Positions 1 to 60,180 of a stretch of DNA of 64,000 nucleotides are shown here, piece after piece. Source of the DNA: an uncultured Clostridia bacterium. GTDB taxonomy: Bacteria; Bacillota; Clostridia; Christensenellales; UBA1242. The stretch spans positions 40 through 64,039 of the forward strand of contig CAMENR010000003.1 in assembly GCA_945928645.1 (NCBI GenBank), written 5' to 3'. A program made the position numbers and the translations under genes. Each line of letters starts with the position of its first letter. The first letter of the stretch is position 1. The notes beneath the pieces were generated by a model. It was not told the DNA's origin. It saw only the letters and a list, made by a program, of their open reading frames with translations, and did not search any database.

Positions 1-1137
<1,137 letters not shown>

Positions 1138-9603: not shown

Positions 9604-9685
9604 CACACATTTCTCCTTCAAATAACTCAATAATAGAATTCTAACCTTTTTGTGCATTTTTATCAAGCAAAATTGCTATCTTATT

Positions 9686-17149: not shown

Positions 17150-17700
17150 TTAAAAGGTTTTATCATATGTGCGAAGTGTTTTGAAATTCCTTGTTTTCCC
17201 TGGCGAAGAATAATTATTTGCAGTATAACTTGGCCAACTTGAAGATGAAGTTTTTCCTCCCCAATTTGCTAAGCTAGCCTTTACACTGTTATCCACTGCA
17301 TAATAATATTTCAGAACAGTTTTCCCAAATACTTTACTATCGCAAGTTCCTTCTGTTTGTGTATAATCAAAGAATCCTATTTTATTATTAGTAGTAGATT
17401 GCTCAACGCTACCATTGCAAACAATTGTGCTTATGTGATAATATTGAATATTTGTCCAAGTCTGTGTATACCACGTTTCCCACCAAAGGAAATTAGTATA
17501 CCTCCACTCAATACTATAATCATAAACGGTTCCATAACAAGCTCTATTGTAATAATATTTTAGATAATTATTTGGATAGATATTTACATTGCCTTTAATT
17601 TTCCCTTCCGATGCCAAGCCAGTTTTTAATGTATGATAACCAAACCATACCGCCCCAGCAATATATCCAGAATTTATAGTTAATGTTGAAAGAGTCCCTG
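17150..17700 (-). other. Giant protein C-terminal ~180-aa W/Y/N-rich, Cys-containing domain (distal tip); no cell-wall or membrane anchor
   Basis: ...YPNNYLKYYYNRACYGTVYDYSIEWRYTNFLWWETWYTQTWTNIQYYHISTIVCNGS...CDSKVFGKTVLKYYYAVDNSVKASLANWGG...KTF*. No LPXTG, SLH or hydrophobic tail. Boundaries are approximate. Confidence 0.6.
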
Positions 17701-20700
17701 TGACTACTATGGCAAAATTATTTGATGAGTAATCTCCCTCTCCATTTGCACAGAGTTTATTGGTTTTATCTGATAATTTTAATGTTCCCAAGTTTCCATT
17801 GACATATATACCATTGGTTCTTCCATTATCACCATTATATTTTACGTCATATCCAAAATCTTTACAAATAGCTTCGCCATTGTCCGCATGAGCTCCAGTA
17901 TTACTTGCAATTATCGCCCCACCTGAAAGAGTGATTTTTCTGCTATCTCCTCCACTCATATACACGCCACCGCCTTTACCACTTGCTGTGTTTTCAGAAA
18001 CTGTTCCACCAGAAGCAGTAAATTTACCATCTACATACACACCACCACCATTGCTGGTTGCTATGTTTTTGTAGACTGTGCCAGAAACAGTCAATCCTCC
18101 TGCGCTATACACACCACCACCGTTTTTGGCTTTGTTGTTTTCACCTACAGTGCCAGAAATTGTTCCACCTGCACAATAGACACCGCCACCATCTCCATTT
18201 GTCGCTGTGTTGCTAGAAATTGTTCCTGAAATGGTCAAACTCGTTGTGCTATACACACCACCACCATTACTATCTGCTGTGTTGCCATATATAGTTCCAC
18301 TAATAGATGTTCCCGCTCCGTCATTGCAGATAGCACCACCGTTTGTTGTGGCTGTATTTTCAACTGCTTCCCCAGTGAATGTAAATTTTACCGCTGAGTA
18401 GATAGCTCCACCATTGTTTGCTGTATTTCCTGTAAAGTATGAATTGATAGTTTTATCACTAGCGTTTATATACATACCACCACCATTGGAAGTGGCTGTG
18501 TTGCCACTTATAGCACGGTCATTACTGCATGTACTTATACTCCATGTTCCATTAAGATAAACACCACCACCACTTCCTGCCTTGTTATTTGCAATGGAAT
18601 ATTTTGTTGAACTTTCTCCATCTTTTTGGTCCGTAACGGTTCCACCAATATACATTCCACCACCGACATTACCTGCACCATTATATTTGATAGTGCCACC
18701 AAGGATATAGAATGTCGTTCCACTTGCAACATACACACCACCACCATCATTTGTTGCGTAGTTGAATGCTATAGTCCCACTTTCTTTCATTGTAAATGTT
18801 CCACTGCCAACATACACACCACCACCGTTTTGCGCTTTGTTGGAGTTATTCTCTGCTGTCGCAACAGATTCTTTTTTGGAATCTCCAATTACACCACCAG
18901 CTAGATTGAATGTGCCACCTCCAACATACACACCACCACCATTGGTTATCTTGTTGTCAATGTGGCGTTTAATTTCTCCACTATTAAAGTTAACTGTTCC
19001 CCCGTTTACATATATACCACCACCGTTGGTTGCTATATTACCTTCAATGGTTGCAGATATATTTGATACCCCGCCATTTGCATAGATACCACCACCACTG
19101 GTTGCACTGTTTTGTTGGATAGTAACATCAGTCAGAGTTAATATCCCGCCATTTACATAAATACCACCACCGTTGGTTGCTCTGTTTTCAAAAACTGTTC
19201 CACCATTTATGGTTAGTGTCCCATTATTGTAGATTGCACCACCATTGCCAGTTGCAATGTTTGAAATCCCTTTATTTACTACTCCAGTAAGCCTTTTCCC
19301 AAACAAAACTTTTGTAATCGTTGCATTTCCACTATTGTTATAAACGGCGCCACCATTTTCTGCACTGTTGCTTACAAATACAACACCTTTCCCCTCAAGA
19401 TTAGGACCATTTAGTTGATAACTAGACTCATCTCCTGTGTATTCTATATTAAGGATTGAATCTTCGCTGGTATAAATTGCACCACCATTTGTGGCATAAT
19501 TGTTTCGGAATACAATTGCATCTCCAAAGGAATTAACATTGTTGCTTGTGGCTTCTTGTGTGCCATAATTTACAGCAGATTCACTGTTTTCACTTATTAC
19601 AACCTTCCCTTTTGCATAAATTACGCCTCCATCGGTTGCACAGTTATATGCAAACAATCCACCGTTAATATTAAGAATTCCTCCGCCAGCGATATAAATT
19701 CCACCACCATTCTCTGCATAGTTGGCAGACAATCGGTTTTCATTTTTTACAAGGCAACTGTTATCTTCTGCTAAAACATATGCTTTGTAACTAAATCCTT
19801 TCTTGCTGGTTAATGTTACTGTTGGAGCAGTTGGCTTGCCATCAAACAATGTTCCTTCAATACCCAAGCCAGCATATGCTTTGTAGCCTATCACTCCATT
19901 ATTGATAGTTAATGTTGATGAACCATTAACATAAATACCTCCACCGTTAACCGTTGCATCGTTGTAGCATAACTCTATGTAAGATAGAACAACTTTATTG
20001 CTACCGATATATACACCACCACCAGAATTTGCTAAGTTATTTTGAATAACTGTGTCAATAGTCATTGCATTGTCAGAATCTGCACCAACAAGGTAAATGC
20101 CACCACCATTGTTTGCCTCGTTAAACGACACTACCCCGCCAGTCAAAGCAACATTACACTTACTACTACTAAAGGAAAGATTTGCATAAATACCACCACC
20201 ATCTGTTGCTGTGTTGCCAAAACTATCCTTAAATGCTGAAAGTCCATTGCCTTTCTCGCTAGTCCCACCAATTGAGCCATCTTCCATGGTGAAGAACCCG
20301 TTAACTTCTACGAATACACCACCACCTTTGGTTGTTGCTGTATTGTTTCTAATTGAACCACTTGATAATGTAAATGAAGCATTTTCTGTTATGCATACAC
20401 CACCACCATTGGTTGCTGTGTTGTCACCTACATAGCCACCTGACAACTTCAATGCGCTTTCTCCAGTGATATATATTCCACCACCATTGGTTGCTGTGTT
20501 ACTAGAAATATTTATTTTGCTATCCAATATAAGTGGAGTATCTCCGCTATAGACTTTTGAACTACCAATATACAAGCCACCACCTAAAGATTCCTTACCT
20601 TCTATGCCAGTATTACTATTGATATTAGTATTGTTTCCGGCAAAATTCAATTCTCCGTTCTCTGTTAATGCAATGCCTGAACCCTTTATAGAATGGTTGC

Positions 20701-23700
20701 TTGAGATTGTTATATCGTTTCCAAAAGTTACTTTCCCACCAGAAACATACAATGCTCCACCTGCTTCACTGGCTGTGTTGTCTGAAATACTTAAGTTATC
20801 GCCCAATTTCAATGTGCTTTCTTCAGTGATATATATTCCACCAGCATTGCTGGTTGCTGTGCTTTCTCCAGTAATATATATTCCACCACCATTGCTGGTT
20901 GCTGTGTTGTTGGAGATTTTTATATCTTTTTCAAATTCAACTTCACCACCACCAACATACAATGCGCCACCATTAGTTGCTGTGTTTTTAGAGATTGTTA
21001 ATCCTTTGCCCAATTTCAATGTGCCACCAGCAACATTCACTGCACCACCATTGGTTGCTGTATTGTCAGAGATTGTTACAGTTGATGGGATTGTGAGGTT
21101 GCCACTTGCAAGATAAATCGTAGAATCTGAGGTGTTATTTTTAATATTTACATTTTCGCCGAATGTTACTACGTTGTCTTCCGATCCCTCAGCTATATAA
21201 AGTATATAATTAGTTGATTTGTTGTTTGTTATAGATGTCGAAGTGATATTAACTGTCGAATAAACAACTTTTATCACTGCACTAGTAAATGTCGATTGCT
21301 CATCTTTATTTTCTGGATTGCTCCATTCGGTTATAGTGCAATCAGTTATGCTTACATTTGAGTTGTCGCTGAAGTCTAGTGCATTTGTTGCCGATATCTT
21401 GGACAATGTTATTCCACTTAACGCAACAGGGCTATTTGTTGCAGAAATAACTGAGCCTGAAGTAGTTTTTACATAAGTAATAGTGCTACTTGTAATCGAC
21501 AACCCTGTGCTTGTTGTGCCAGCACTACCTAATAGCGAACTTGCAGAAGAATTGCAATCTATAACTGTAAATAGGTTTTTGTTGCCAGAATCTATATTTT
21601 GTATCTTTATATTATTAGCCTCTAATTTTCCTCCTGAAATGGTTGCCACTGCAAGTTGAGATGGATCTCCTGCCTCATTACAGATATTAACTTTGCTAAG
21701 TTTTACATTTGCGCCTGTTGAAATATTGAAGATATTCTTTGTTGTGCCTGATATGTTAACATTGTTAAATTCAATTCCACCACTTTTTACATTGAGCCAA
21801 TCATAACTCATATCTAGTTCTATTGTGTAAGGCTCCACATTGACGTCAAACTCATAACCCACACCTTCTATTTTTGAGGCTATCTCAGCAGATTTTATTG
21901 TTATTGTATTTTTTACAGTAGTTATTTTTGAATCTGCTGATACATTATTTAGTAGATAAAGCTCTTGATTTACCGCTTTGCCTGTAGCCCCAGAAATTGC
22001 CGAGGTTATATCTTGATAGAATCTTTTGATTGTATTGTTGTAAATATTTCTTTCTGCAATGATAATAAACGCACCTGAGGAATCTGCCATTATTATAAAG
22101 CAATATTCTTCTCCATTAGGGTCCTCACCCTTAAAGATATCTTCCAGCAAGTTATATTTTGACAATTCTACATCTACATATCTTGCAACTTTCTGACCAT
22201 AATCTGTAGCCATATAATCACAAGAAACGGATATTTGTTTGTTGCCAGGTTCGTAAGGTTTGTTTATATTTATCAATGCCAAACTTTTCATTCCAGACTC
22301 TGTGACGGTCCTTTCAAGATAAAGAGTATTGTATATCTTTATATTCTCTGATAGATACTCTTCGTCACTATCTAGGGTAAGAGCAATGGTATGCCCTTGT
22401 TCGCTAAGATAAATTCCTGCACCCTTTTCTCCGGCTGTGTTGGCTAATGTAGAATCACTCTCTTCACCAACCTGCAACATAAATACTGTTATTTGTGATT
22501 TTGAATCCACAAATATTCCGCCACCTTTTCCTGTTGCACTGTTGGAGTAAAGTTTTAGATATTCTTCCCCTACACCATTGAAGGTTGCAATGGTGTCGCA
22601 GAGATATATACCTGCACCATTTTCACTGGCTGTGTTGGAAGATATTTGACCACCTTCAAAGTTAGCACTAATCTTTACAACTATGTCTATATCATTCTTC
22701 CTTTCTTTCTTTTGCCTTAGCCCATTGATATACACACCACCACCATTCTTTGCTGAGTTTTCAGAAACTACACCACCTGCAAATGTGAATTCCACATTCT
22801 TATAATTGTCAACATATGACACAATTCCATTTACTTCTTTTCTTTCAAATTCTTTTGCGTTGACAAATATACCACCACCATTCTCAGTTGCTATGTTGTT
22901 AGAAATTGCTATGTCTTGTGTAATTTCCACCTTGCAATCACTATCTAGATACAAACCACCACCATAGTCGGCTATGTTGTCTGTGATTGTTCCGCCAGAA
23001 ATGTTAACTGTTGAAGTTTTTGCATACAAACCACCACCAAAGCCTGCAACACCATTGGATATTGCACCACTTTCCATTGTAAATGAAGACTCTACTAAGT
23101 AAATTATTCCACCTAAGACGCCTTCATTTATATCCAAACTGCTTCTTCCCTCAACCCCAGAAAGCTCAGCTCCTGCAATATTAACTGTAGATAAGTTTGT
23201 CGCATTTACCACACTACCATTTGCGCTAGAGGTAGCATTGGTTATTATGAGGTTTGAAGTGAGTGTGATAGTAGAATCTTTGACATAGAACACACTTCCC
23301 TCTGAATCTGTGGAACAAATTATCCTTACATCTCCTCTTCCTTTTAAGTCATATACACTATTAAAATCTGCATCATAACCAAATGTTATATTCGATCCAC
23401 TATCCAATTGGAAGAGATTTTCCCTGATATTAGCATTAAATGTAACACCACCAGTTTTTGCAGAAATAACAACCCCCTTCAATCCACTAAATTCCACAGT
23501 TTTAGAAATTGCATAATTGCAATTATCTGCAAGTATAAGATACTTGTCGTAAGTATAAAGCGCCATAGACTGCATATCATTTATTGCCCCGTCTAGAGTA
23601 TCACTCTCGGCATATTGTTCTATGCCACTGCTGTTCTTTCCATATACTTGGAAAACTTGTGTCCTCAAAACAACTTCATTGCCAACAGCCTTTAGTCCAA

Positions 23701-26700
23701 AACCAGAATTGAGGTCTAGATTGAAGTAATTGATATACCCCTTGCCATCTACAGAATCAACATATTCGCTACGCACAAACTGCAAAATCTTATCTCCCTC
23801 AGCAAATACACCCTCTTCCAAGAACAAACTTATTCTCTTAAAGAATCTCTTGCCACGGAACTCCTCTTTGTTTGTTTTGCTTCTAAATCCACTGTTAACA
23901 TCACCACTTGGATCATCTTTTACATTTATGAATGATTTATTATTCAAAAGCAAAATTCCATCGTCAAGGCTGTCTATTTCTCCAGAAAGCACTAGGCCAC
24001 TCTTCACTATCAATCCTTCTGGGCCAGATACCTCGCTTTCAGATTCATTTGATAGAGTTATTGTTGCATTTATGCCATTGTTTAATACTATTGACTTCTC
24101 ATTGTTATAATCTTTAAGTTCTAGCACTCCACCAGCCACAGACAACCCGGCACCATTCTTTTCGCCACTTACAAGGGTGTTTCCTTCTATCACTGTTCCA
24201 TAAAGGGTAGTGTATCCACCTTGTGTATAAATTGCTCCACCATCGCCTTTGGCTGAAGCGCTGTTTTCTCTCAACTCTCCCAAAACCAACGACACATTGC
24301 CACCAACAACATAAATTGCCCCACCAACTGCATCAGATGAATTTTCACTAAAAGTAGAATAGGTGTTGTTTAATGAATTGATATTTATGGTTGTATTACC
24401 TTCTCTAACCGCTATCGCTCCACCACCAACTGCGTTATTAGAGCCAATCATCACAGCCTTGTTTGACTCAAACTTATTTTTACCAACGATATTCAATGAG
24501 CCACAAGACAATATTGCGCCACCTTGTGTAGATTGATTATCTCTAAACGAACAATCGTTAACAGTCAAAGTCCCAGCGCTTATGTACACACCACCGCCAT
24601 TGATTGCCTTATTTTCGCTAATTACACAACCATCGTTAAGGTTTATGTTTCCACTTGCTACATAAATTGCTCCACCATATAGTGCTGACTCATAACTTCT
24701 TATGCCATTTCCTATAAAGATGGTAGAGGAAATGGTAACCTCGCCATTAGAATCAAAGTAACAAGCACCACCGTTTTCTGCATAGTTGCTCTGGAAAGTT
24801 ATTCCCCTTGATTCAACTTCTGCTTCTTTAGTCACAGCGATTGCACCACCATACATGGTTGCATTATTATTTTGGAATGAAGTATTAGAATGAATTGACA
24901 ACTTGCCATTTTCCACACAAATTGCACCACCGTTTTTGGCACTATTATTGGAGAAAGTGCAACCAATAATCTCATAATTATTAGTTTTATCTGCTTTTGG
25001 AGTGGAGTTGAGATCCAAAGCACCACCATCTTCGATTGAACTATTGCCTTCAAACACTACTCCAGATGCTTTCAGTTGACCACCATTTTCTACACAAATT
25101 GCACCACCTTTCTTGGCATTGTTTTGTGAAATTATAGAGTTTTCATCAATCACAATACTTCCACCAACAGAGTAGATTGCACCACCAAGGCCATTTGTAG
25201 CACTACAATTTTGTATAGTGGAATTGTTGCTGATTTCAATAGTTCCATTTTCTTGATAAATCGCACCACCATTAAGAGTCGCTTGACTATCTATAATTGT
25301 AGAATTATCCAAAATTACAGAGCCATTCTTAAGCCAAATTGCACCACCACATTTTAGCTCGTTGACATTCAATCCACTAACAGAAAATACATTGTCGGTT
25401 GATGATAGATTTGCCTTAGTTTTTTGCACTGTTGTTCCGTTTGTCAACTTAAGTGTTCCGCCATCAATATAGAACATACTTGTATTTACTAATGTATCTT
25501 TATTTCCTTCTATTATAAATGGCTTGCAAGAATCACTGTCAGTTAACTTTAGCCCTTTGGAGTCTATATCATATTGGCTTAGGTAGGTAAGTTCCAAAGT
25601 TCCTCTTATTACAAACATAAAGTCTTGATAAGAGCCATCACGCAAAACCACAGCACCATCTGCATTTTCCCTGCAATCTACAATTACAATATCTTTGTTC
25701 TCTTCCACATAGATTGTGTTGTTGTAATTGACCACCTGTCTATTGAACAAACCAAAGTATGCTGTTTCGTTGCTTGGGGCTTGCTCTATTGCATCGTTTA
25801 TAGAAGCATACATCTTAAACTTGCCATTTTCGTCAGCCTTTAACGAACGGATAATACCCGCCATAGCATAGATGTCTTTGCCTCTTCTTGTAAACACTAT
25901 GATATCCGAATCCAACTTGCCTGCACTTGCAAATTTTTCTTGTGCAAATGTAGCAACCTTTATTTGTTCGTTATCTCCAAATACTTGTTCCAATACAAGA
26001 TAAATTTTGCTGTGCTCTTCTGCAACAAACATATCTGTAATATTAAGAATTGATTTGGTTGACAAGAAGACTCTATCCAATATCTTTGCAGAGTTGGAAA
26101 TATATAGGGAGTTGGATTCTACTGCTTCCTCAATGCCAGTAGCAGTGTTCAACTTCTTAGCGCCTTGGACATATATTCCACCAACATCTTCGTTGGATAC
26201 AACATTATCTCCTTCGGTGTAATTTGCACCATTTCCACTGATTTCTCCGCCAAAAATTCTTGCAATAGCACCAGAAGAAATAAATATTGCTCCGCCTTTA
26301 CCTTCGCTGGTTGTTGCTGTGTTGCCAAATACCTTGCCACCATACATATAAAGCACTTTTCCTACATAAATTCCACCACCCACAACAGCACTGTTGTTTG
26401 CTATTGTAGAGCCAGCATTTTCTAGTCCTTTTCGCTCTATATCGTCATAAATTTCAAATGACAAGTTGTTGCCTGTAGCATACACACCACCACCTTGCCC
26501 ATGAGATACATTGTTAGAAATATTTCCGTCACGCAAAGTAATCTTGCCATTCATAGCATATAATCCACCGCCATTTTCATTTGCAGTATTGGCATCTATG
26601 GTTGCACCACCAGACAATTCTACTTCCCCATCTGCTGTGGCATTTAGTTGCCCCATATACACACCGCCACCGTTTATAGTTGCAGTATTACCAGCAATTG

Positions 26701-29700: not shown

Positions 29701-32700
29701 CAAAATCTTTTGTTACATTCTGCTTTGCAAATGTATAACCATAAGCAATCTTGCCACAAAGTTCACTCAACTCACTAGATGTTGGCAGTGTAATTGTAGT
29801 ATTTGTTGCTGGAATGTCACTTGCCACCACTTTGCCTGTCCACAACAAAGTATTTCCATCAACAATGTTTACTGTTATTTCTTTCGCTTTCCATTCCACA
29901 AATACTTCTTTGTCAGCACTTAATGCAATTTCTGTAGAGTCGCTTAGCACCACTCTATTGCCTCCACTTACTGTATCTGTAACAGCCACTGGAGTAAACC
30001 CTGCAAATGCAAAGTTTTCGTTTATAACCTGAGCAGAAATATTTGTTTTGCCCATATCGTCTGCAGTTATGTAGAAACTTTCGTTGGCAATAGCATTGGT
30101 TACGGTCAACACATAATTTTGCCATATTGGATAGAGGTGGACTACATTCTCTCCCAACACATTTTCTACTTCACCACCATCAGCAACTTTCTTGCTAGTC
30201 TCAGGAGAATTTTCATAAGCCCAACCAGCAAAATGTGCTTGTTTTTGCAACCCAAGTTCTTCCAGTGTAGGAGCATAGGCTTTTGAACTGTAGTTGTATT
30301 CTACTTGTCTAGCCACTCCCCCTGTTGCATTGTGGAATATTGCAGTCCAATTGTCATCTTCCCACTCTGCATACAGAGTTATCTTGCCACTTGAAGCAAG
30401 ATTTTTGACCACTGCGCCGTTTGCATAACTTTCACCGTCCAAAGTGCTAGTTGTATTCCAACTTACAATATGCTTTCCGCTTACTGCAAACGAACTAACC
30501 AATGTAAACTCTTGGTCAAATACTGCATTTATCACTTCAACATCTTGCCTGCCTGCAATATTCATAACCAATTCCACTTGATAGTTGTTTGCTTGCCAAA
30601 CAGCCTCAAGGGTTATTTCTATATTTTCCTGTATATTATCTGGGTCAAATCCTGTCAAAATATCTTTTGGCAAGTTGATTACTTTTTGGTCAACTGCGTA
30701 GAGATTACCCCTTTCATCTTTCCATTGAACCACATTCCAGCCATCTGCGACAAACACTTCTTCTAGCCACTCGTAACTATCAAAATGAAATTGTCTTGTC
30801 TGACTGCCTTCTGTAATTGTAGTAGAGCCTTCTACCAAATTTGATACATATTTCACAGTGTATTCTTTGGCTTGCCAAATAGGTCTTAGGACTACATTGT
30901 CGCTTGGCATAACGAATGGAGTGTTATCGCTTGTTTTCCAAACATTTTCTGCACTCAAAGATAAGTTTGTATTTAGTTGCGAACATTCAAACCCTGCAAA
31001 GTTGTAGTAAGTCTTGCTCAAAGCATCTTTTGCCGAAGAAAGCACTCTTCCTGCATATTCTTGATTGTTCACAGACACTTTGATAGATGCTTTATCCGCC
31101 TTACCACTTACAGTTGTTACATTCCAAAGATCCTTAAACTCATCATTTACTTCAAAAGTTGCTCCACCTAATTCTATTGTAAGCAAACGATATTCTTCTG
31201 TATATTTGGCCCTTAATACCTCGTCATGTCTTGGCATTGTTGTTAGTGTAGTTACATCTTGAACTTCGCCATTCTCATCTACATATGTCCAACATACAAA
31301 ATCATAGTTTTCTTTGACGCAAGAGATAGAGTTGTCTATAAACATACTTAAAATATTTGTTCTATATTTTACCTCTTTGTGCCAAAGGGTGTTTTCTACT
31401 ATATAAGAACCATTGCCAGAAATCTTGCCTCCTGCTGGGTCAAGCGTCAATGTAAAGTATCCTTGAACAATATAAATTTTGCCTTCTAGAGCCTTTATCC
31501 TATAATCATTGATTTTGTCATCAACAACATCAAAATTCTTAACTCCATCTACTGCTTGATTGTCATAGGTTGCAATCTCCACACTTTCGGTTATATTCTT
31601 TGGATAATTTGCCTCGTCAATTTGCACTCTGATTAAATTATCATTGCTAAATGGCTTTGAAATAGCAAATCTAGAATTGCTTCCTTCTAGTTTAATAATG
31701 CTACTAAATGTGCTTGAACCTGCAAAGTCTAATAGACCATAACCCGAAACAACGACCAAACTCCCTTGCAAACCAATGTTTATTGTTCCATTGCTAATGA
31801 TAACTTTGCCAAATATGTCTTTTGCATTTGAACCGATAAACATCTCGTTGCTTTCGTTTTGAGCGATTGTTCCTCCTTTTATGTTCAGAGTTCCTCTTAC
31901 AACATACACACCACCACCATAAGTTGCAGTGTTGTCTGATATTTCGCCAGAAAGCAATACAATAATTTGCTTGCTTGCAGTGCCTGCTGTATCACCTATG
32001 CAAACACCACCACCATAAGTTGCAGTGTTGTTGTTTATCATTGCGCCATCAATGATAACATTGCCTTCACTTACACCCAAATCACTGTCGCCATCATAAT
32101 ACACACCACCACCTTTTTGAGCAGAGTTGTTTATGATTTCTACCCCTTGACCAATGGTTGCCCTGCCACAATCCAGAGCCAAATACAACCCACCACCATA
32201 GGTAGAGGCTTCGTTGCCACTTAATCTGCAGTTAGTTATATCCAACACTCCACCACCAAACCAAATGCCACCACCATTTGTTGCGGTGTTATCTGAGATT
32301 TCTCCTCCACTTATCACACAAGTGTTGCTTCCTATATAAATTGCACCACCATACAAAGCACTATTTCCCGAGATTGTTGCAGAGTAAATTTCTAGCCCAC
32401 CACGAGCAACTATTGCGCCACCAAAATTTCCTGCTTCATTTTCAGATAATATAGCACCATTCAATATCAACTTGCCATCGGCAAGCACACCTGCACCGTT
32501 TTCTGCATAGTTGTTTTGGATATAAACTTCTTCACCAATATTAAGAGTTCCATTTTTAACATAAACTGCACTGCTGTTTGCTCTAATTTGAAGTTTGTTT
32601 CCGTCTATTATAATGTTGGAAAGTGTTATATCTCCTGCAAATTCGAACATATTTCCAGCAAATGTTTCATTCCTTACAAAAGTCGTCTTGTAAACAGAAG

Positions 32701-35700
32701 AAATTGATACTTTTCCGTTAAACTTATACGTCTTATATATGTTGATATTGGCATTGACAAAGACGAGTTCATCTCCTTCTTCACAGTTTGCTACCCCGTC
32801 AGAATTAAACACTCCATCTTCGCCTTCGATTGAGTAATAATACACTCTAGTTGTTTCTCCGCCAGTTACAGCCTTTCTGTCTGCATAAGCAACAACCTCT
32901 TTCCAGATACATTCAAACTCTAGAGTTGTAGCCTCTTCTATGTTGTAGGACCAATACACAGGATATGTTGTTCCACTGGTATTTCTGCCAACATAAACAT
33001 CAGTAATAGCATTGTTGTATTTTGAGAAATCTTTAGTCATCTCTTGCAACTTGAATAGTATATCCCCTTGCTTTAGGACATACTTCCAACCAGCAACAAC
33101 AGTGCCATTTTCATCTTCTTCAAATCTTTCTGCAATCTCAAACGAACTGGATTGACTTTCGTTGGCACTGCCTTCTCCCTCATAAACTTTTATTGTTACA
33201 AGATTAGGATCCCAACATGCCACAAAGAATATTGAATATTTATCCAAATATGAGCCACTATCATTTTGATGTCCTCTGCATATTGCTGAATAAGCATCAA
33301 ACCAACTATATTCCGTATCGCCTACAGTTTGGCCATATTCGGTGATAATATCAAAGTTTAGTGGCGAATTGTATATGCTAAATGTAACTTTTCCCATTGG
33401 GTCTGGGATTAGTTTTACACCTGTCCTAATATAACTTGTCTTGCCCAGTTTTACCGAACCTTCTGTATTGTCTTCCACAGCATATGCCAATTCCCAAGCG
33501 CTAAAATGATGATATTTCAATGGATTGTTTATTAGGTCTGTTGCATCTAGTTCCACAGTTGTAGACACTTGAACTGTGCTTTTGTTGAATATTGTAGTGG
33601 ACAATCCACCGCTAGAATTGTTCTTTTGATAAAGGATATTTATCCCAAACTGAACCTCTGTCCATTGTGCCACCAAAGTAAGTTCTTCTACAGGGAGATT
33701 TTTATTTTGACTGCTAAAACTCATTCCGTTGTAGTCAGAATTTTCATTTGACACGATAAATGAATCTTGCAACGAATAACCAAATGCTTTGCCTAAAATA
33801 TCATTAAGGAAGGAGAAGTCCTTTTTGTCTGTAAGACTAATATCAAATACACCTTTTATTTCTTCTCCATTGTATTCAATAAGTTTTCCATTGGTGTCAA
33901 TAAATATCTTATCAGCAATCTTTCCTATTTTCAGGTAGTTTTCCTCTCCAAACAGGCAATATCCGTCAACATTGTCCAATGCAAACAATTCCATACTTGC
34001 CTTTCTTGAAGATATATCTATAAATTGTGCTACTATCCAGTTTTCTATCAAAGCCTTCAATGAGTCATCATCTGTTGGTGTTGAGCCTTGGTCGTCATTT
34101 ACACATTCTATCAAAATCTTTTCGATATTATAAAGTGAACTCTCTACATATATCCTTGCTCTTTTTAGCAGATAAACTTTTGCCAAGAACTTTCCACTTG
34201 AAACACCTGACAACAAATTTAGACCTTTGTTTGCTTCATTGCCCTTTACAAGCACACTGCCATACAGGTTGGAGCTGGCTACATTCAACAGACCTCCGTT
34301 GTCTATGTACACTGAATATGGATAGCCAGTCAAACTTTCACTGCCCACTGTTATGCCTGCAAGATTTGCAGTCCCAGTTTTGCCTACATAGACATCTGCT
34401 CCAAGAGTCAAAATGCCATTGTATATGTCATCACTGCCACCTGCGTTATTCCCTACTACAGAGCTGTAATAAAGATTTGTGCTGACGGTTGATGAAATGT
34501 ATATTCCGCCACCAAAACTTGCTGTATTGTTGGTTGCTACAAAAGGCTTTTTGCTGTTGTCAAATGTTGCATTATCACCAATATATAATGCCCCACCTGC
34601 ATTTGCAACTTTGTTAGATGAAAACTCTAGAGGGTTGGAGTCTTCTGTTTTCATAAGTGATAGAGAGGCATTTTCGCACACTGCCACAGCACCACCATTT
34701 TTGGCCATATTGCCAGATATACCCACACCTAATTGAAGTGTTGCAGAACCACATACTGCAATAGCGCCACCATATGTTGTGCTGATGTTTACTACACGAC
34801 TTGGAATATAATATCCGTTTTCACTAAACACGGCATCGCCATATATCGATACCCCATCGCTTCCATCAACATACACTGCACCACCATATGTCATTGCACC
34901 AGATGGAGATAGTGTGTAGTTGCCAGTAAATTGCCCTCCGAAAATTTCTCCTCCTTTTGATATAGCCACAGCTCCACCATAATTATTTGCAAAGTTGGAG
35001 GTGAAAGTTCCACCAGTAACAGTTACCTTTGCTCCAGCACTTATTGCCCCACCTTGAGCCTTGAGCATAGTCCCTTGGCCTATGGCAGAATTTGATGTAA
35101 ATATTCCATTATAAACAGACAAATTGCCCTTGGCATACACCGCACCACCTATTGTTGCAATATTGCTTGTAAATGTTATATCTGCACTTGACACAACAAC
35201 ACTTTCTTCACCATAAACAGCACCACCATAATATTTTGCAGAGTTGGAAGTAAAGGTATTTTTGTTGCTCAACTCCACTGTTCCCGCATAATACACTGCT
35301 CCACCATTTTCTTGCGCAGAGCAATTTGAAAACTCTGTTTCAACAATAGTTAACTTTGCTTCTTTTGCTACAAATATTGCACCACCATTTTTTGCTTGTG
35401 TTCCCTCAAATTTTGCATAAGAAATATCTACAGTAGATTTGTTATCTGCATAAATTGCACCACCATAATTATTTGCAAACACACTGCCTGATGACGCAAA
35501 TTTTGTTCCATTTATTATTACCTTTCCATATGTTGCCACATACAACACACCACCATTTTCTGCAGAAAGATTCTTTACATCAAAGTTTGCCAAAGTTGCA
35601 TTGCCTTCTACATAAATACCGCCTCCAGCCAAAGCATAGTTGTCATACAATCTCAACCCTTCATTAGCGACAAAATTTCCACTTGTAGACACTTTGACGA

Positions 35701-38700
35701 GTGAGTTCATTCCAGATGTTTTACCTTTTACAGAAAGAGTAGTTACAACTCCATCACTTGCAATGTTGCCCATGGTAAGAGTTACTCCACCGTTAACCAC
35801 AAACAAATTGCCAGACATCTCTTCCCCTGCAGAAATTGTGTATGCTCCGTTGGACACAATGACAACGTTTTTGGAGATTTGAATGGTGTTGTTTACTTGG
35901 CAATCTGCAGTAACAACGACCTTATACCTTCCGTCAAATGCTTTAACCTTGCCCGATGTAATATCATCGATAGCCTTTTCTAGAGTAGTGTAGTAAATAT
36001 TTACATTCTTACCATTAAATTGTGCTCCATTCTCCACATAGCAACAAGACTCCTTCCAAATAGCATACAAAATGAAGTCTTTTTTCATAGTAACTTCCAC
36101 AATGTCTTTTGGAAGATACTCTGGTTCTGTGCTTGTTTTGTCAAAACTGAACCCAACCAGCGAATATCCTGGTCTTGCAAACAGCACTTCTTCCCCGTCA
36201 TAGAATATTGACTCGGTTGCACTAGGGAGAGTGATGGTTTCTCCAACATATTTATTTATAATCACATTGTCGGTAGTGTCCTTCTTTGGAGCGTCCCAGT
36301 TACTCTCGATTTTAACATCTTTTTCTATTGCTTCAAATACCACATCAAAGACAATGTTTCTGCTGACAACAGTTGCCAGATTGGTGGTGGTCATATCAAA
36401 CACTTCACCTGCACCATAACTATTGCCATTAAAGGAAAAGTTTTTGAACCTAAATCCGTCAGGCCTATTAACAGCCCTAACAAGCCATGTCTTACCACCA
36501 AAGTCAAAGTAGTATTGTCCATTTGATTCCACAACATCAACTTCTTGCTCTCCGACCAAAATGCTTTGTGGATAGAAATAACTGTCTTCTTCATCAGAAA
36601 TTGCAGAGATTTTTCCATTGGTTGCTTCGTCAAACCTTACAAATGCAGTCTTGCGACTTGGTTCTACATAATACTTCTGCCCATTGTCTTCAAAGGAATA
36701 TAGCCCTGTCTTTTCGTCAAAGTTCAATCTATTAACAGCACTATCACTTCTTACAAAGGTTTTGCCATCATACACCACAGAGTCTATTAATGCCCCGTTA
36801 TAATTTACTTCGCTAAGCGAAACTATTTGCACTGCTTCCAATTTATTCACTTCGCTTAGAGATGGAAGAGTTATCTTGCCATATTCTCCATCAACTAAGT
36901 CAAAACTAATTCGAAGATTAGATGCAGGCACTCCGCCTATGGTGTAACCAGAAATGAGTCTGCCACCATACAATGTGTCATACTTATAACTAACTGTATA
37001 TTTTACAGGTTTCCAAACAGCATACAAATAAATGTTTCCTGCCAGGAATTTCGCATTTTCTACTCTAAACCAGTCTGATGTGGCTTCTTCACTGTCTCCA
37101 TTGGAATGTAAAGCAAACTTAAACATATCCGAATATTCGCCACCTGGATTTTGCATTTCTTGATAAATATCAAGCAAGCCATCTATTTCTAGCCTTGCAC
37201 TATTTATTTTGTCATAATATACCCAACCCACGAATTCATAATCGAATTTTGAAGGAGTCCTTGTAGCAATAAGGTCAGCCATTCCACTTTCGGCAACATT
37301 GGCATTATACTTAAACTTAAACTCACTCTCCCCAAAACTTTCTTGCGACAGATCGCATAGAGTAAGAGTATAATCTTGGAAATACAAGACTATATTTGTG
37401 CTAGGATATTCTTCTTTTGCAAACAAATAATTTATGCTATCGCAAGCGACGAAAACTTCTTCCAAAGAAGCCCATTTTTCACTTGAATACTCGACATAAG
37501 CCACCACTCTCTTCCCTAGTTGAGCTGTTATATCGTTGGTGTCTTTTTCAAAAGCAATCATTATCTGTTCGCCTGAGTTAGTGAAATATTCATAGTTTGA
37601 GCCAGATATCAGTCTTGCCTTTACTATTAGGTTGTTGAACGTTGATGGAGCTCCTTCTTCGTTGATATAATTTACGAAGAACATCTCACTGCTTCCAAAG
37701 TAATTTTCGCCCAAAATAGTAAATGAATTCCCATTGAAAATGGTTGAACCTTGATTACTGCTAGAAGTTGATGATTTTATGTTTTCTTTAGCACGAATAC
37801 CCTGAACAGTTGTTGAGCCTAAGTTGTATATAGTTGCATAGTCATCTGCAACATTCCCCTCAATGTCGCTGTTCTTCCATATACATTCGCCAGATGTTGC
37901 GACATATAGAGCCCCACCCACAACAGCAGTATTGCCTGCTTTTTTGCTGATAGCTGGGATATTGGCTGGCAAAACATCATCCATATTAAATTCTTGCCCG
38001 TTACTAAGATAATGATAACTATAATCATCACTACTTTCATTTGAAACAATATAGTAATATTTTTCATAGTTTTCTGTGGAAGAAGTTACTATATTGCCAT
38101 CCATATCTACATAGTTGCCAGACTGAGATTCTACTTGCAACAATATTGGGTTGCCAGTGCTTACACCAAATTGATCAACTTCATAGTAGTTAACCATTTT
38201 CCCATTGTCAGAGATTTTTACTGCGTAGCCAATGATAGTTTTTAGAACTCCACCTTCATATATCCACCTATATGCTGATGTAGAAACGTTGTCCAGTTCA
38301 CATTTTCCTTCTACATACAATGCTCCACCATATGTTGCATAGTTATCATATATTGCACTGTTTTCCAACTTAGCAAGCCCTGTGTTTACACATACACCAC
38401 CACCAAAACTCTCCCCTTGGTCATCGTTTGCAATATTGGAAGAAATGTATGCATAGCGAATAATGCTGGCACTGCTTGGAGAGCCGGCAATATATATACC
38501 TGCACCTTTGTTTGCACTGTTTTCACTTATGCTGACCCATTCCAATTCGTCTGCAGGGACAAAACTTATGTCGTTGTTTACATAAATTCTTGCAAGGTCA
38601 ATAACAGCAACCCCACCACCTATCTGTGAAGAGTTTTTGCTAAAAGTTGTTTTGCTTACCGTTACCAACACCTCATTACCGCTGATAAACAAACCACCAC

Positions 38701-41700
38701 CAGCCTCTTGAGCAATATTGCTTTCAAAATAACAAGATGCTAGGTTGTGCGCATTATCTTTGATATATCCGACCACAGCCACTGCGCCACCGTTTTGGGC
38801 AGTGTTGCCACTAATAAATTTGGAATAAACTGCATTAAGCAGACTATTGTCGCCCACAAACACAGCACCGCCATTGCCAGATTGTGCCATATTTGCAACA
38901 AATGAGCAATAGTTTAGTTTTAATTCACTTCTTTCTATATACAATGCCCCACCATTGCCTTGTGTTGCTCTGTTTTGATTAAATCCAACTGAAAGAGCCC
39001 CTGTTCCTGCAATTTTGTTGTTAACATCCATGCAATTTTGAAGTGCGATAGCACCACCAATTTTTGCTTGGTTGCTTGTCCATTCTAATCCTCTGTCAAC
39101 ACATACAATATTTATCTCTGCACCTGTTGCATAAACTGCACCACCATAGGCATTGCCAGAGCAATTTACCTCATTTTCTACAAAAGCCCCACCAGAAAGA
39201 TTAAACTCTCCACCTACTACTGCTATTGCACCACCAAAACCATTGACACCTGATACATAACAATTATCAAAGTTTGCATAGTTGATAGTTGTAGTGCTAT
39301 TTTCTGCATAGATAGCACCGCCATACAATTGTTCTACAGTTCTAGAAGTATTGAAGCAGTTTTCAAATGTAACATTGTCTAGTATTATTGTAGAATTTTT
39401 TGCAGAAATTACACTGCCATATCCACCAACTGTATTTACAATGGCTGTGAATAGAACATTGTTATTTATTTCCAATGTTCCACCTGCCACACTTAACAAC
39501 ACTTGCTTGTTTGTGGTATTGGTTGATTCCTCACCGATAGTTAGTTTGGTCAAATCTCCACCAGAGATAACCAACGTTCCCTTTATATCAAACAATGATT
39601 CGTTGAATGCTCTTGCACGAACCACTTTCATATCACTGTCAGAAAGCATTATTGTCAGTTTTTGTCCAGCAGGAATCTCTACCTTTGCACTCAAACTTTG
39701 CTGTCTTTCGTTGTTTTGAAGAACAACCACAGCACCATCTGCAGATGTGGCATGGCTTGCCGAATTTTTGGAAGTGCCTGCCATAGCATCTCTTATCGCC
39801 ATATCTATACTTGCATAATATTTGTGATATCCTGTGCTAAAAAAGTCCTTTATGTAAGCACACGCCTTTCCCCAGTTGACCAAAACCTCCACTACATCCT
39901 TGTTTAGAGGTATGCTGGTTGGTCTTGTATATGTGGTTGTGTTGTATTTATAACTAGACACAAGGTAATCATCACAATAGAGGTCATCAAAACTTGGTAA
40001 AGCAAAGTTTTCTCCATAATGATAATCTGTATCATTTAGTAGATAGGCAACATTGTCTTCCTTTACAAGTTTGAACTTGCTATCAGAGCCAATATATCTT
40101 GCATTTTCTTTGCCAAGATTTATCTTAACAGTAACAATATTTGTTTGCCAAATGGCATATACACTTACAGTTGCACCATCTCTTATATCTGCAATCTTTT
40201 CCAGGTCATATTCCTCGCCTTCCAGTATCACAAAGTTATAACCCAAGTCATATTCAATAACACCAGTTAGGCCACTGCCTACGCTTGGTCTTATTTGATA
40301 GCCAACATGAGTGTAATTTGCACGATTCCAACCTTCAATACTTTGTGGGAATTGCAATGCCTCACCATAAGCAACTTCCATTGTTACTGGGTCGCCATAA
40401 CTTTGAGTTCCAGTAATTTCTTTGCTGTAGAATGTGAACACAAATTTGTGTGGTCGCCATATTGCATAGAAGGTGATATTTTCGTTTGCAAGTTCAGTTA
40501 CTGTTATATCACTAGTTCCAGAATAACTTGGGCAATACAAATTGTCTGTTGACCCACTGTTTGCTACAAAATCAGCATAGTCCTTATATTGACTTGTCCA
40601 ACCAATAAATGTATACCCAACCTTTGTTGGTCCTAGGTCAGCGTTCGTTGTTTCTGACTTTGCAGATGGCAATGCGACCTGATAACTATCTCCATTTGAA
40701 ACAAGAGGTCTTGCTTCTATCTCCAAAGAGCCTTCGCCAGGGCCATATCTCCCACCGTTAAGCACAAAGTAGGCTTTTGCTTGCGACCAAATTGCATAGA
40801 CAACAAAAGTTCCCGCTTGATTTATTTCAAAATCATTTTGGCTATATATTATTGTTCCATTTTCATTTTCCCAACCACCAAAAGTTTCCGAACTAGTCGC
40901 AGTAACCAATAGCAAATCACTTGCCAAAATCTTTTGCCCATATCTAACCTTCACTGCAATCTTGCTATTATATTCTGTTTCGCCAAGTCCTACATTAGAC
41001 ACAAAGTTGTTGAAGTTGATATCTCTATTTACACTTCCACCTTTTGTATCAAACACCAACAACACTTCGTCGCCTTGCCATTCCACTTCAAAATGTCTAT
41101 CCAAACTATCTACTACAGCACTGTTGATTGCACTATAATTATCTCGTTCAAAGTTTGCAAAAACCTCTGCAGGAATGTTTATTTGCTTAAACTCTGTTGT
41201 CCAAGTGATAAGTTGAGTTCTATCTTCGTTTGTTGTCCAAGTCAAAGAGTTGTATTCTCCTTCTACAAAGGAATCCTTAACTTTTCCTCCACAGCCATCA
41301 ATCACCACCAAAACATCATTATAAACCGCATACAATACAAATTGAGAAGTAGATTGAATATCTTCAGCATTTGCTAGGACATAAGAAACCATATCCCCAC
41401 TATTTTCAATAGGGACCAAATTTATATCTCCACCTTTGCTCATTGACCAACCTGCAAGAGTCTTTCCGTCTTTCAAAATCTTGGTTGTGTCAATATTTTT
41501 TGTAGATATGTCAAGCCCTGCTTTGAGGCTAGAGTATAATGTATCAAAGGTTATGTTGAAAGTATAACTATCTGTTTCACTCTCTCTTGCATAGTTATAT
41601 TCAAAGTCTGATGTCTTATCCCCAAGATATTCTCCACCCAAAAGTTCGAGTTTTAGAGAGTAAGATTTTTCTTTCCATGTGCTAACAAATGTAATTTGTT

Positions 41701-50875: not shown

Positions 50876-50904
50876 TTGTAATTTTTGTGTATTAGTGCTA
50901 AAAT
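50876..50904 (+). promoter_or_regulatory. Candidate extended -10 promoter for the 50930 gene
   Basis: TTGTAA(50876-50881)-N17 (including TG)-TAAAAT(50899-50904). Confidence 0.45.
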
Positions 50905-50929
50905 TTATATAAATAAGGGGAGAGGGAAA

Positions 50930-51316
50930 ATGAATAATAAAATAAATTATATGGATTTTGTGGATAAAAAAATCGCCATACTACAAAATCACATCAACAA
51001 ATATACAAAAATGGGTGGTAAACTTGAATATCTAAATATAGACAATCCACAGTTGTATGAAGAATGCAAACATGCCATAAGCCTAATAAGAAAATATTAT
51101 GGTATATACATTAGGTCTGTAAGACACCTATTGAGTATGCTCGGATATTATTATTCTGCCTCTGATTATGTCTTTGATATAGAAGATTTTGATAGTCATG
51201 AAGAATGTTATAAACGAGATATTATGGACAGTTATTACGAGTATCTTGAAAGCAAAGACTTGTCTGATGGAGACAACTATCCATATCTTAGCGACGATAG
51301 TTTTTACCTTAGATAA
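50930..51316 (+). CDS. Hypothetical acidic, Tyr-rich protein (128 aa)
   Basis: GGGGAGAGGG RBS before the ATG at 50930 (the track ORF starts at a TTG at 50885). I recognise no motif. Confidence 0.6.
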   Translation: MNNKINYMDFVDKKIAILQNHINKYTKMGGKLEYLNIDNPQLYEECKHAISLIRKYYGIYIRSVRHLLSMLGYYYSASDYVFDIEDFDSHEECYKRDIMDSYYEYLESKDLSDGDNYPYLSDDSFYLR

Positions 51317-60179: not shown

Positions 60180-60180
60180 T

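What the first reader, a model, noticed from the sequence alone, without database searches (positions are those of the whole stretch)
17700..39850. Seven-fold 'cap + PMP beta-helix + tail' modular architecture with a clear polarity
Reading the translation, the same module recurs seven times.

Each module has three parts. It starts with a cap of the type Y(Y/A)(S/T)(I/L)xxA(I/L)xD followed by a ...(V/I)V(I/V)...N... strand: YYASIDMAIRDA, YYTTLEKAIDDI, RVYYYSIEGEDG, YSSIAMALEDC, MYASINDAIEQA, TLDGAINDMQ, FYQDITSAISGA. Then come 8 to ~35 turns carrying GGA(I/V)Y or NGGG(I/V)Y with FxxN/N(T/S)A spacers, which is the Chlamydia Pmp repeat logic and predicts a right-handed beta-helix. It ends with a non-repetitive tail of ~100-170 aa.

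Modules 1-3 are each preceded by Flg_new spacers. A single LRR domain precedes module 4. Modules 4-7 are concatenated head-to-tail with no spacer.

The modules are diverged at the nucleotide level, with only short 20-25-nt identities such as ccaccattggttgctgtgtt. The array therefore looks old, or assembled from paralogous adhesin genes, rather than a recent amplification. Each module resembles a complete stand-alone 'adhesin-like protein', which raises the possibility of a polyprotein that is processed, or of a rod presenting seven heads.
Basis: partly seen in the sequence, partly recalled or inferred. Interest (0 to 1): 0.7.

Follow-up and report, generated by a model that had tools for sequence, protein, structure and literature searches.

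The report
Giant gut-bacterium surface protein, seven beta-helices
The region is the outer two-thirds of one 10,902-residue, membrane-anchored surface protein of an uncultured gut Christensenellales bacterium that carries seven separately capped beta-helix domains; it is a well-preserved example of the known giant adhesin-like proteins of gut Clostridia, not a new kind of system.

Summary
The finding lies inside one ORF (window 17150..49858, minus strand, 10,902 aa, about 1.17 MDa). All seven quoted "cap" strings exist, and the GGxΦY motif forms exactly seven blocks. Pfam finds Chlam_PMP in all seven blocks (M1 falls just under the cutoff) and a BspA-type LRR before block 4. AlphaFold2 folds module 3 as a right-handed parallel beta-helix.

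Caps M1-M6 are truly homologous: each left-out cap is recovered by a leave-one-out HMM at 17-27 bits. The M7 cap is supported only by motif and position. The "tails" exist but are not homologous by any sequence test, and they have no relatives outside the orthologues. Flg_new passes the Pfam threshold in only some spacers and is not detected at all before module 3.

Orthologues at 73% and 47% identity keep the same colinear seven-block plan. The array is therefore old and conserved, not an artefact or a recent amplification. Caps M2 and M3 resemble stand-alone "cap-PMP helix-tail-Flg_new" surface proteins of other organisms, including an archaeon, more than they resemble their sister caps.

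My best reading is a single N-terminally anchored fibrillar adhesin-like protein. The polyprotein idea has no support. This is a new member of a known kind, of modest interest.

The parts
17150..49858 (-). Whole giant ORF: 10,902 aa, about 1.17 MDa, pI 4.6. ATG at 49858 with an AAGGAG ribosome-binding site 8 nt upstream.
   Evidence: An independent pig-gut assembly has a 10,881-aa gene in the same position next to recR.
49175..49858 (-). aa 1-228: Q/N/G/P-rich low-complexity N-terminal region, presumed cytoplasmic.
   Evidence: composition; sequence. The topology is inferred.
49094..49165 (-). aa 232-255: the only hydrophobic transmembrane-like segment, flanked by KKKK and KKK. Read as an N-terminal membrane anchor.
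   Evidence: the only 19-aa window with Kyte-Doolittle score >= 1.9 in the whole protein; no LPXTG motif.
39872..49078 (-). aa 261-3329: long stalk of divergent Flg_new / InlB B-repeat-like domains.
   Evidence: Pfam Flg_new and Flg_new_2 at aa 833-979 and about 1564-1627. 16 xFxGW and about 13 LYAxW signatures. Most copies are below Pfam detection.
37409..39871 (-). Module 1 (aa 3330-4150): cap, about 14-17 PMP rungs with a roughly 130-aa insertion at aa 3850-3980, then a tail.
   Evidence: The cap is recovered by the leave-one-out HMM (21.5 bits). Chlam_PMP scores 19.7 bits, just under the cutoff.
36047..37408 (-). Spacer 1 (aa 4151-4604): Flg_new-like, sub-threshold.
   Evidence: 14.9-16.9 bits; Flg_new_2 15.6 bits. 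Signatures at aa 4209, 4278 and 4597.
33899..36046 (-). Module 2 (aa 4605-5320): cap, about 15 PMP rungs, tail.
32897..33898 (-). Spacer 2 (aa 5321-5654): unassigned beta-rich spacer. No Flg_new hit, only weak signatures.
31439..32896 (-). Module 3 (aa 5655-6140): cap, about 9 PMP rungs, tail. The beta-helix is modelled with high confidence.
   Evidence: AlphaFold2, Foldseek.
29309..31438 (-). Spacer 3 (aa 6141-6850): Flg_new-containing spacer.
   Evidence: Pfam Flg_new 29.7 bits at aa 6813-6850. Four xFxGW signatures.
28097..29308 (-). BspA-type leucine-rich repeat domain (aa 6851-7254).
   Evidence: Pfam LRR_5 4e-24, three stretches.
25844..28096 (-). Module 4 (aa 7255-8005): cap, about 17-19 PMP rungs, tail. 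The tail is 93% identical in the 73%-identity orthologue.
23624..25843 (-). Module 5 (aa 8006-8745): cap, about 13-15 PMP rungs, tail. It follows M4 directly across a nearly invariant junction.
   Evidence: (93.8 bits).
22049..23623 (-). Module 6 (aa 8746-9270): cap, about 9 PMP rungs, tail.
17153..22048 (-). Module 7 (aa 9271-10902): divergent start (YQDITSAI helix motif), about 330 aa of rungs without the PMP motif, about 35 PMP rungs, and a C-terminal region. It is the fastest-evolving part (28-52% identity to the orthologues).
17153..17641 (-). C-terminal aromatic- and Cys-containing domain (aa ~10740-10902; Y 12%, conserved NRAC...CNG motifs). This is the distal tip. It has no family assignment.

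Best explanation
The region encodes the distal two-thirds of one giant fibrillar, adhesin-like cell-surface protein of an uncultured gut Christensenellales (Clostridia) bacterium.

Architecture. The chain is held in the cytoplasmic membrane by a single N-terminal transmembrane helix that follows a Q/N/P/G-rich cytoplasmic segment. It projects outward through a stalk of about 3,000 aa made of divergent Flg_new-type domains. It then carries seven independent right-handed parallel beta-helix domains of the PMP-repeat type plus one BspA-type LRR domain. Helices 1-3 are separated by spacers. Helices 4-7 are fused head to tail.

The modules. Each helix begins with its own N-terminal capping element: a strand, then a Y-x-S/T-I-x-x-A-I amphipathic helix, then two or three motif-less rungs. 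This is the known way in which beta-helices seal their hydrophobic core. After the last PMP rung the helix appears to continue for a few motif-less rungs and ends in a lineage-specific segment, the "tail".

Origin. The modules derive from the widespread stand-alone "signal peptide - cap - PMP helix - tail - Flg_new - anchor" surface proteins of bacteria and archaea. They were joined long ago, before the divergence of species that now share 47% identity.

Function. The inferred role is adhesion or aggregation, most plausibly binding of glycans or other cell surfaces, with the fast-evolving seventh helix and the C-terminal domain at the exposed tip.

What is shown and what is inferred. Shown: the ORF, the domain identities, cap homology, orthologue conservation and the beta-helix fold of M3. 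Inferred: membrane topology, surface exposure, lack of processing and the adhesive function.
For: - One continuous ORF with a ribosome-binding site. It is reproduced in independent assemblies (10,881 aa next to recR). It is colinear in two other species at 73% and 47% identity with the same seven-block pattern and no stops.
- Domain calls: Chlam_PMP / POMP_repeat in the seven blocks, LRR_5, and Flg_new.
- AlphaFold2 models M3 as a beta-helix with pLDDT above 90. Foldseek matches only right-handed beta-helices.
- Cap homology: hhalign probabilities of 80-83% in register. The leave-one-out HMM recovers every cap M1-M6 at 17-27 bits, as the best non-training hit. The motif occurs only at module starts.
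- N-terminal alpha-helical capping of beta-helices is an established feature (Bryan et al. 2011, as cited in PMC11532034).
- Stand-alone homologues have the same part order. One of them sits in an archaeal contig. Caps M2 and M3 are closer to these proteins than to their sister caps.
- There is a single transmembrane segment, no LPXTG motif and no autotransporter barrel.
- Giant 10-30k-aa Clostridia gut proteins with Listeria-Bacteroides repeats, LRR and autotransporter-adhesin-like regions, proposed to be adhesive, have been described (10.1101/2023.11.21.568195). Flg_new is used as a stalk domain in fibrillar adhesins (PMC9210967).
Against: - There is no experimental evidence of expression, localisation or binding.
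- The anchor polarity (N-terminal transmembrane helix, C-terminal tip) is the reverse of the canonical LPXTG fibrillar adhesins.
- The tails and the last roughly 60 aa before each cap are poorly modelled (pLDDT below 55), so the rigidity and geometry of the junctions are unknown.
- Most of the "Flg_new" stalk is below Pfam detection.
- Beta-helices of this fold also include enzymes, so a catalytic role is not excluded.
Confidence: 0.72

Rival explanations
1. Polyprotein. The chain is cleaved at the module boundaries, which releases seven stand-alone adhesin-like beta-helix proteins.
For: - Each module resembles a complete stand-alone protein.
- Chlamydial Pmps and some mycoplasma adhesins are known to be processed after translation (my own background knowledge, not tested here).
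Against: - No protease domain was detected in the protein, and no protease gene lies nearby.
- The modules have no internal signal peptide or hydrophobic segment.
- The M4/M5, M5/M6 and M6/M7 junctions are among the best-conserved stretches and are not linker-like.
- Only the N-terminus has an anchor, so released fragments would be lost unless they stayed associated.
Confidence: 0.08
2. Surface-displayed array of polysaccharide-active enzymes. Some or all of the beta-helices would be lyases, hydrolases or epimerases rather than passive binders.
For: The Foldseek hits include the AlgE4 epimerase, RbmB and PL6 lyases, pectate lyase and tailspike endoglycosidases.
Against: - The matches are at fold level only: 11-15% identity and TM-scores of 0.3-0.4.
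- There are no hits to any lyase or glycoside-hydrolase family in Pfam or NCBIfam and no PDB sequence match.
- The rungs carry the regular GGxΦY/NxA PMP signature, which is typical of non-enzymatic adhesin helices.
Confidence: 0.1
3. Assembly artefact, or a recent repeat expansion that produced a falsely long ORF.
For: Repeat-rich genes are prone to mis-assembly.
Against: - Nucleotide repeats are only short and 60-80% identical.
- The same gene is found in independent assemblies.
- It is colinear with orthologues at 73% and 47% identity.
- A 3,975-aa orthologue fragment is present in the representative library.
Confidence: 0.02

Closest known systems
Giant adhesin-like proteins of gut Clostridia (10,000-30,000 aa, with Listeria-Bacteroides repeats, LRR and autotransporter-adhesin-like regions), noted by West-Roberts et al. 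2023 (bioRxiv 10.1101/2023.11.21.568195)
   Same: Same class of organism and habitat, same size range, same domain vocabulary (Flg_new, LRR, beta-helix) and the same proposed adhesive role.
   Different: That survey gives no module-level anatomy. This report adds the seven separately capped PMP helices, their order, the N-terminal anchor and the conservation across species.
Stand-alone 'cap - PMP beta-helix - tail - Flg_new - C-terminal anchor' surface proteins of bacteria and archaea, including the adhesin-like proteins of methanogens with right-handed beta-helix domains (PMC11532034)
   Same: Homologous cap and PMP rungs (E down to 3e-28; cap alignments). The order of parts is the same. The N-terminal alpha-helix cap is recognised in these proteins.
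   Different: Those proteins have one helix, are 450-860 aa long, and have a cleavable signal peptide and a C-terminal anchor. Here seven helices sit on one chain with an N-terminal anchor. Their tail profile does not significantly match the tails of this protein.
Chlamydia polymorphic membrane proteins (Pmp; type V autotransporters)
   Same: The GGA(I/L/V) / FxxN repeat signature (Pfam PF02415, TIGR01376) and the predicted beta-helix.
   Different: This protein has no autotransporter beta-barrel and no cleavable signal peptide. The host is a Firmicute. The protein carries many helices rather than one passenger domain.
Fibrillar adhesins of Gram-positive bacteria (stalk + adhesive domain + anchor; Monzon et al., PMC9210967)
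   Same: A repetitive stalk of Flg_new-type domains, with LRR and other putative binding domains placed distally.
   Different: The anchor is an N-terminal transmembrane helix instead of a C-terminal LPXTG motif, so the polarity is reversed. The protein is about ten times larger.
Rhombotarget A (PDB 9cdv), the best structural match
   Same: A right-handed parallel beta-helix of similar rung geometry (Foldseek E 6e-5).
   Different: 12-15% identity, TM-score about 0.3, and no sequence-level hit. It is a single small domain with a different sorting signal.

Membership tests
Chlamydia Pmp / type V autotransporter | GGA(I/L/V)-FxxN repeats (PF02415 / TIGR01376) | tested here: met
   All seven blocks are hit. 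M1 falls just under the cutoffs.
Chlamydia Pmp / type V autotransporter | C-terminal autotransporter beta-barrel | tested here: not met
   The Pfam scan of aa 9276-10902 returns only Chlam_PMP. The C-terminal 263 aa have no PDB or family match.
Chlamydia Pmp / type V autotransporter | Cleavable N-terminal signal peptide and an outer-membrane host | tested here: not met
   A 228-aa low-complexity N-terminus precedes the single transmembrane segment. The organism is a Clostridia/Christensenellales member.
Right-handed parallel beta-helix (pectin-lyase-like) fold | Three-stranded rungs stacked into a right-handed solenoid | tested here: met
   AlphaFold2 model of M3 with pLDDT above 90 over residues 50-350. 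All Foldseek top hits are right-handed beta-helices. The rungs flanking the M4/M5 junction have pLDDT of 82-97. The other modules are inferred from the repeat signature.
Right-handed parallel beta-helix (pectin-lyase-like) fold | N-terminal capping alpha-helix | tested here: met
   Short helices are modelled at the Y-x-S-I-x-x-A-I motif (M3 residues 32-36; M5 aa 8020-8026). The caps are homologous across M1-M6. For M7 there is only motif evidence.
Fibrillar adhesin (stalk + adhesive domain + anchor) | Tandem stalk domains | tested here: inconclusive
   Flg_new passes the Pfam threshold at only three places. About 24 signature motifs suggest many divergent copies.
Fibrillar adhesin (stalk + adhesive domain + anchor) | Cell-wall anchor (LPXTG) or other surface anchor | tested here: not met
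   There is no LPXTG motif near the C-terminus. A single N-terminal transmembrane helix is present instead.
Fibrillar adhesin (stalk + adhesive domain + anchor) | Demonstrated binding activity | not testable with these tools
   This requires recombinant modules and binding assays.
CSLREA-domain PMP proteins (NCBIfam) | Match to the CSLREA N-terminal domain model | tested here: not met
   Several homologues are named this way. The NCBIfam scan of all seven modules at E <= 1 returned no such model.
   Pairwise z-scores are at most 2.7. hhalign probabilities are at most 9%, the same as the cap-versus-tail controls. The leave-one-out HMM recovers no tail. There are no homologues outside the orthologues among 1.84 billion representatives.
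Polyprotein | Embedded or adjacent protease and defined cleavage sites | tested here: not met
   No protease family was found in the protein or in its neighbours. Cleavage itself cannot be tested here.

The most novel reading that the evidence does not exclude
The conserved chain of seven capped beta-helices could be a dedicated inter-species aggregation fibre. Its modules share ancestry with archaeal (methanogen-type) surface proteins of the same build. The fast-evolving distal helix and the C-terminal domain would mediate the physical association of Christensenellales with gut methanogens or other partners. Flocs of Christensenella with Methanobrevibacter have been described (PMC7002349). 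The invariant tail-to-cap junctions would make helices 4-7 one continuous rigid super-helix of about 50 nm or more, which would be a previously undescribed way of building a long beta-solenoid rod from separately capped units.
Probability: 0.12. Interest if true: 0.6.

Novelty: new member of a known kind. Interest (0 to 1): 0.33.

Why it matters
Christensenellales are heritable gut bacteria associated with host health. Almost nothing is known about their cell surface.

This locus gives a complete, cross-species-conserved map of one 1.17-MDa surface protein. It shows how giant adhesin-like proteins can be built by joining whole, separately capped beta-helix units, rather than by recent repeat amplification.

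It also provides defined domain boundaries for expression, structural work and binding assays. It does not reveal a new class of system.

Tried and rejected
- Tail homology. I tested it with Smith-Waterman against shuffles, profile-profile comparison of three-orthologue alignments, a leave-one-out HMM, and a tail profile built from 15 stand-alone homologues. All were negative or at control level. The best result was the M2 tail at 15.6% probability.
- Homologues of the M4 tail plus M5 cap. I searched 1.84 billion representatives (only an orthologue fragment and a 94-aa piece) and the word-indexed database (nothing). The structure of the tails could therefore not be supported by a deep alignment. 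AlphaFold2 gave pLDDT below 55 for the distal halves of the tails.
- The word-indexed protein search returned only proteins under about 860 aa. It was therefore of no use for finding other multi-module giants.
- An iterative in-protein HMM for Flg_new stalled at three copies. hhalign of the spacers against that small profile was uninformative.
- NCBIfam found no CSLREA model. PDB sequence searches with M5 and with the C-terminal domain found nothing.
- The cluster look-up gave no source names for the orthologue or for the stand-alone homologues.
- I considered and rejected an assembly artefact, a recent tandem amplification, and membership in the autotransporter Pmp family.
Full report
**What is at the coordinates**

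The window contains one very long open reading frame on the minus strand, 17150..49858. It encodes 10,902 aa, about 1.17 MDa, with a pI of 4.6. The ATG start has an AAGGAG ribosome-binding site 8 nt upstream. The finding (17700-39850) corresponds to residues ~3337-10720 of this protein.

The window is bacterial. The 5' part of a 23S rRNA gene lies at 1..1139. The Tex protein encoded in the window is 95% identical to that of "Christensenella sp. UBA7862", and its next relatives are uncultured Clostridia and Christensenellales from animal guts.

The recR gene lies immediately downstream of the giant gene. An identical recR is found on more than 20 metagenome contigs. On a 114-kb pig-gut scaffold the gene in front of it is 10,881 aa long. 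The giant ORF is therefore not an assembly artefact.

**Check of the observation**

All seven quoted "cap" strings occur once each, at aa 3347, 4622, 5671, 7270, 8016, 8754 and 9280. The GG[AG]ΦY motif is absent from the first 3,500 residues. It then falls into seven blocks with a rung spacing of 24-33 aa and roughly 9 to 37 rungs per block.

Domain assignments are as follows.
- Pfam assigns Chlam_PMP to all seven blocks. M5 scores 93.8 bits. M1 scores 19.7 bits against a cutoff of 20.6.
- NCBIfam POMP_repeat passes its cutoff in M2-M7.
- A BspA-type LRR (LRR_5, 4e-24) occupies aa 6851-7250, directly before module 4.
- The Flg_new signatures (xFxGW and LYAxW) occur 16+ times in the N-terminal 3,300 aa, and 1, 2 and 4 times in the three spacers. 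None occurs after aa 7255. Modules 4-7 are therefore directly concatenated.

At Pfam's own threshold, however, Flg_new is found only at aa 833-979, about 1564-1627 and 6813-6850. It is sub-threshold before M1 and M2 and is not detected in the spacer before M3.

At the nucleotide level the only repeats are the 26-60-nt stretch that encodes N-T-A-x-N-G-G-G/A-I/V-Y, at 60-80% identity.

**The fold**

AlphaFold2 was run on module 3 (aa 5655-6145) with 103 aligned sequences. It gives a beta-helix with pLDDT above 90 over about 300 residues. A short helix lies at the Y-x-S-I motif, and the last 135 residues, the tail, are unresolved. Foldseek against the PDB returns only right-handed parallel beta-helices: Rhombotarget A, the AlgE4 A-module, RbmB and PL6 lyases, and the Sf6 tailspike. 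These are fold-level matches only (11-15% identity). A sequence search of the PDB finds nothing.

**Caps are homologous; tails are not**

Cap-only Smith-Waterman comparisons give z-scores of up to 10 (M2-M3), and 4.5-6 for several other pairs.

Using alignments of three orthologues, hhalign puts caps M2-M3, M2-M4 and M4-M6 in register with 80-83% probability.

The strongest test was a leave-one-out HMM. Each cap from M1 to M6, when left out, is recovered over nearly the full model length at 17-27 bits. Each is the best non-training hit in the 10,902-aa protein.

The start of M7 aligns in register but with negative scores. It does carry the helix motif. A loose form of that motif ([YF]x[STD][ILM]xx[AE][ILD]) occurs six times in the whole protein, always at a proposed cap, against 0.86 expected from shuffles. 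It is also conserved in the orthologues.

This cap is the familiar N-terminal capping helix of right-handed beta-helices. The literature on methanogen adhesin-like proteins describes it as such (PMC11532034, citing Bryan et al. 2011).

The tails show no signal in any test.
- Pairwise z-scores are at most 2.7.
- hhalign probabilities are at most 9%, no better than the cap-versus-tail controls.
- The leave-one-out HMM recovers none of them.
- A tail profile built from 15 stand-alone homologues reaches only 15.6% probability on the M2 tail.
- The M4 tail plus M5 cap has only an orthologue fragment and a 94-aa piece as relatives among 1.84 billion representative proteins, and none in the word-indexed database.

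An AlphaFold2 model of aa 7781-8260 suggests that the first ~60 residues of the M4 tail continue the solenoid as short periodic strands (pLDDT 65-75). The last ~60 residues before the M5 cap are unresolved, with pLDDT of 40-55.

The tails are therefore real, non-repetitive and conserved within the lineage. The M2 and M4 tails are 91-93% identical in the closer orthologue. They are not, however, a demonstrably homologous third part of a repeated module.

**Age and origin**

Two other Christensenellales genomes carry colinear orthologues, at 73% and 47% identity over aa 3925-10900. Both have the same seven-block pattern and few indels in M2-M6. Module 7 and the C-terminal domain diverge fastest (28-52% identity). 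The junctions M4/M5, M5/M6 and M6/M7 are among the best-conserved stretches, for example IYAMAGIIRSLKADENGKFKMYASINDAIEQA.

Homologues of module 3 in the large protein database are 450-860-aa proteins. Sources name them CSLREA-domain, InlB B-repeat, right-handed beta-helix or "outer membrane repeat" proteins. They come from Treponema, Planctomycetes, Chloroflexota and archaea. Several have exactly this order of parts: signal peptide, cap, PMP helix, a ~90-aa tail, one to three Flg_new domains and a C-terminal anchor. One of them lies in a contig with archaeal marker genes (NMD3, DUF424, archaeal CoA-pathway genes).

Caps M2 and M3 are closer to such proteins (41-48 bits, 38-40% identity) than to any sister cap (at most 27 bits, 26% identity). 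The array is therefore an ancient fusion of distinct paralogous units and not a recent amplification.

**Most likely function and mechanism**

The protein has a single hydrophobic segment (aa 232-255). It follows a 228-aa Q/N/G/P-rich region and is flanked by lysines. There is no LPXTG motif and no autotransporter barrel. The neighbouring genes are housekeeping or unrelated: asnS, recR, tex, a TetR regulator, a GT2-TPR protein and a Wzy_C protein. There is no sortase, protease or dedicated secretion system.

The best-supported reading is one N-terminally anchored chain that projects from the cell. It would consist of a long Flg_new-type stalk, then beta-helix and LRR domains, with M7 and a small aromatic- and Cys-containing C-terminal domain at the exposed, fastest-evolving tip.

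Adhesion or aggregation is inferred from the domain types and from the literature. Giant Clostridia gut proteins with Listeria-Bacteroides repeats and LRRs have been proposed to be adhesive (10.1101/2023.11.21.568195). Flg_new is described as a stalk domain of fibrillar adhesins (PMC9210967).

**Rival explanations**

- The polyprotein idea has nothing in its favour beyond the completeness of each module, and the conserved, structured junctions argue against it.
- An enzymatic role for some helices cannot be excluded from fold matches alone. No lyase or hydrolase family is detected.

**Comparison with known systems, and verdict**

The protein shares the repeat signature of Chlamydia Pmps but fails the other defining features of that family: the barrel, the signal peptide and an outer-membrane host. 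It works like a fibrillar adhesin but with reversed anchor polarity.

It belongs to the already noted class of giant adhesin-like proteins of gut Clostridia. It is built from the widespread single-helix PMP surface-protein unit.

I rate it a new member of a known kind. The three-part module is really a two-part homologous unit (cap plus PMP helix) with a lineage-specific ending. The polyprotein suggestion is unsupported.

Noticed in passing
window 20823-20912 (aa ~9648-9677, module 7): A 45-nt tandem duplication encodes TATSNGGGIYITGES / TATSNAGGIYITEES. It is absent from both orthologues, so it is a recent, strain-specific insertion of half a rung.
   Followed up: partly
window 17153-17641 (aa ~10740-10902): The C-terminal ~160 aa are rich in Tyr, Trp and Thr, with Cys positions and motifs conserved in the orthologues (GNVNIYPxxYLxYYxxxAC ... 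CNG). There is no Pfam, NCBIfam or PDB match. This may be the functional tip of the fibre.
   Followed up: partly
window ~37920-38310 (aa 3850-3980, module 1): A non-repeat insertion of about 130 aa interrupts the PMP rungs of module 1. It is Y/S/N-rich (YYEVDQFG... YYYIVSNESSDDYSYHY). It may be an inserted loop or subdomain.
   Followed up: no
window 49859-51716: An unusually AT-rich (about 27% GC) 1.8-kb stretch lies upstream of the giant gene. It holds only a 143-aa ORF on the opposite strand (50885..51316) and an extended -10 promoter-like site at 50134-50105. It may be the regulatory region of the giant gene.
   Followed up: partly
window 3526-7782 (minus strand): A 1,418-aa predicted membrane protein has N-terminal hydrophobic segments, a long helical, K/E-rich remainder, and no Pfam family.
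   Followed up: partly
window 1-1139 (minus strand) and 63794-63869: The 5' 1,134 nt of a bacterial 23S rRNA gene lie at the window edge, and a tRNA-Lys(CTT) lies near the other edge.
   Followed up: yes
window 59112-61248 (plus strand): An adjacent pair of genes: an SPFH/Band-7 protein with C-terminal double zinc ribbons, followed by a zinc-ribbon protein with a C-terminal transmembrane helix. A further zinc-ribbon membrane protein lies at 13118-13651.
   Followed up: no
window 7941-11203: A GT2 glycosyltransferase fused to TPR repeats, a DUF5671-like membrane protein and a Wzy_C (O-antigen-ligase-like) protein lie 6-9 kb downstream of the giant gene. They may be surface-glycan genes. No link to the giant protein was established.
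   Followed up: no
L090 1429-4344 and 6001-8331 (archaeal contig ERZ16268059 scaffold_673): Two neighbouring single-helix 'cap-PMP-tail-Flg_new' surface-protein genes (971 and 776 aa) sit in an archaeal genomic context. The unit is therefore shared between gut or anaerobe archaea and Clostridia.
   Followed up: partly
tool behaviour: The word-indexed protein search returned no protein longer than about 860 aa. It also missed the window's own protein and its orthologues, so absence from that search says nothing about other giant proteins.
   Followed up: partly
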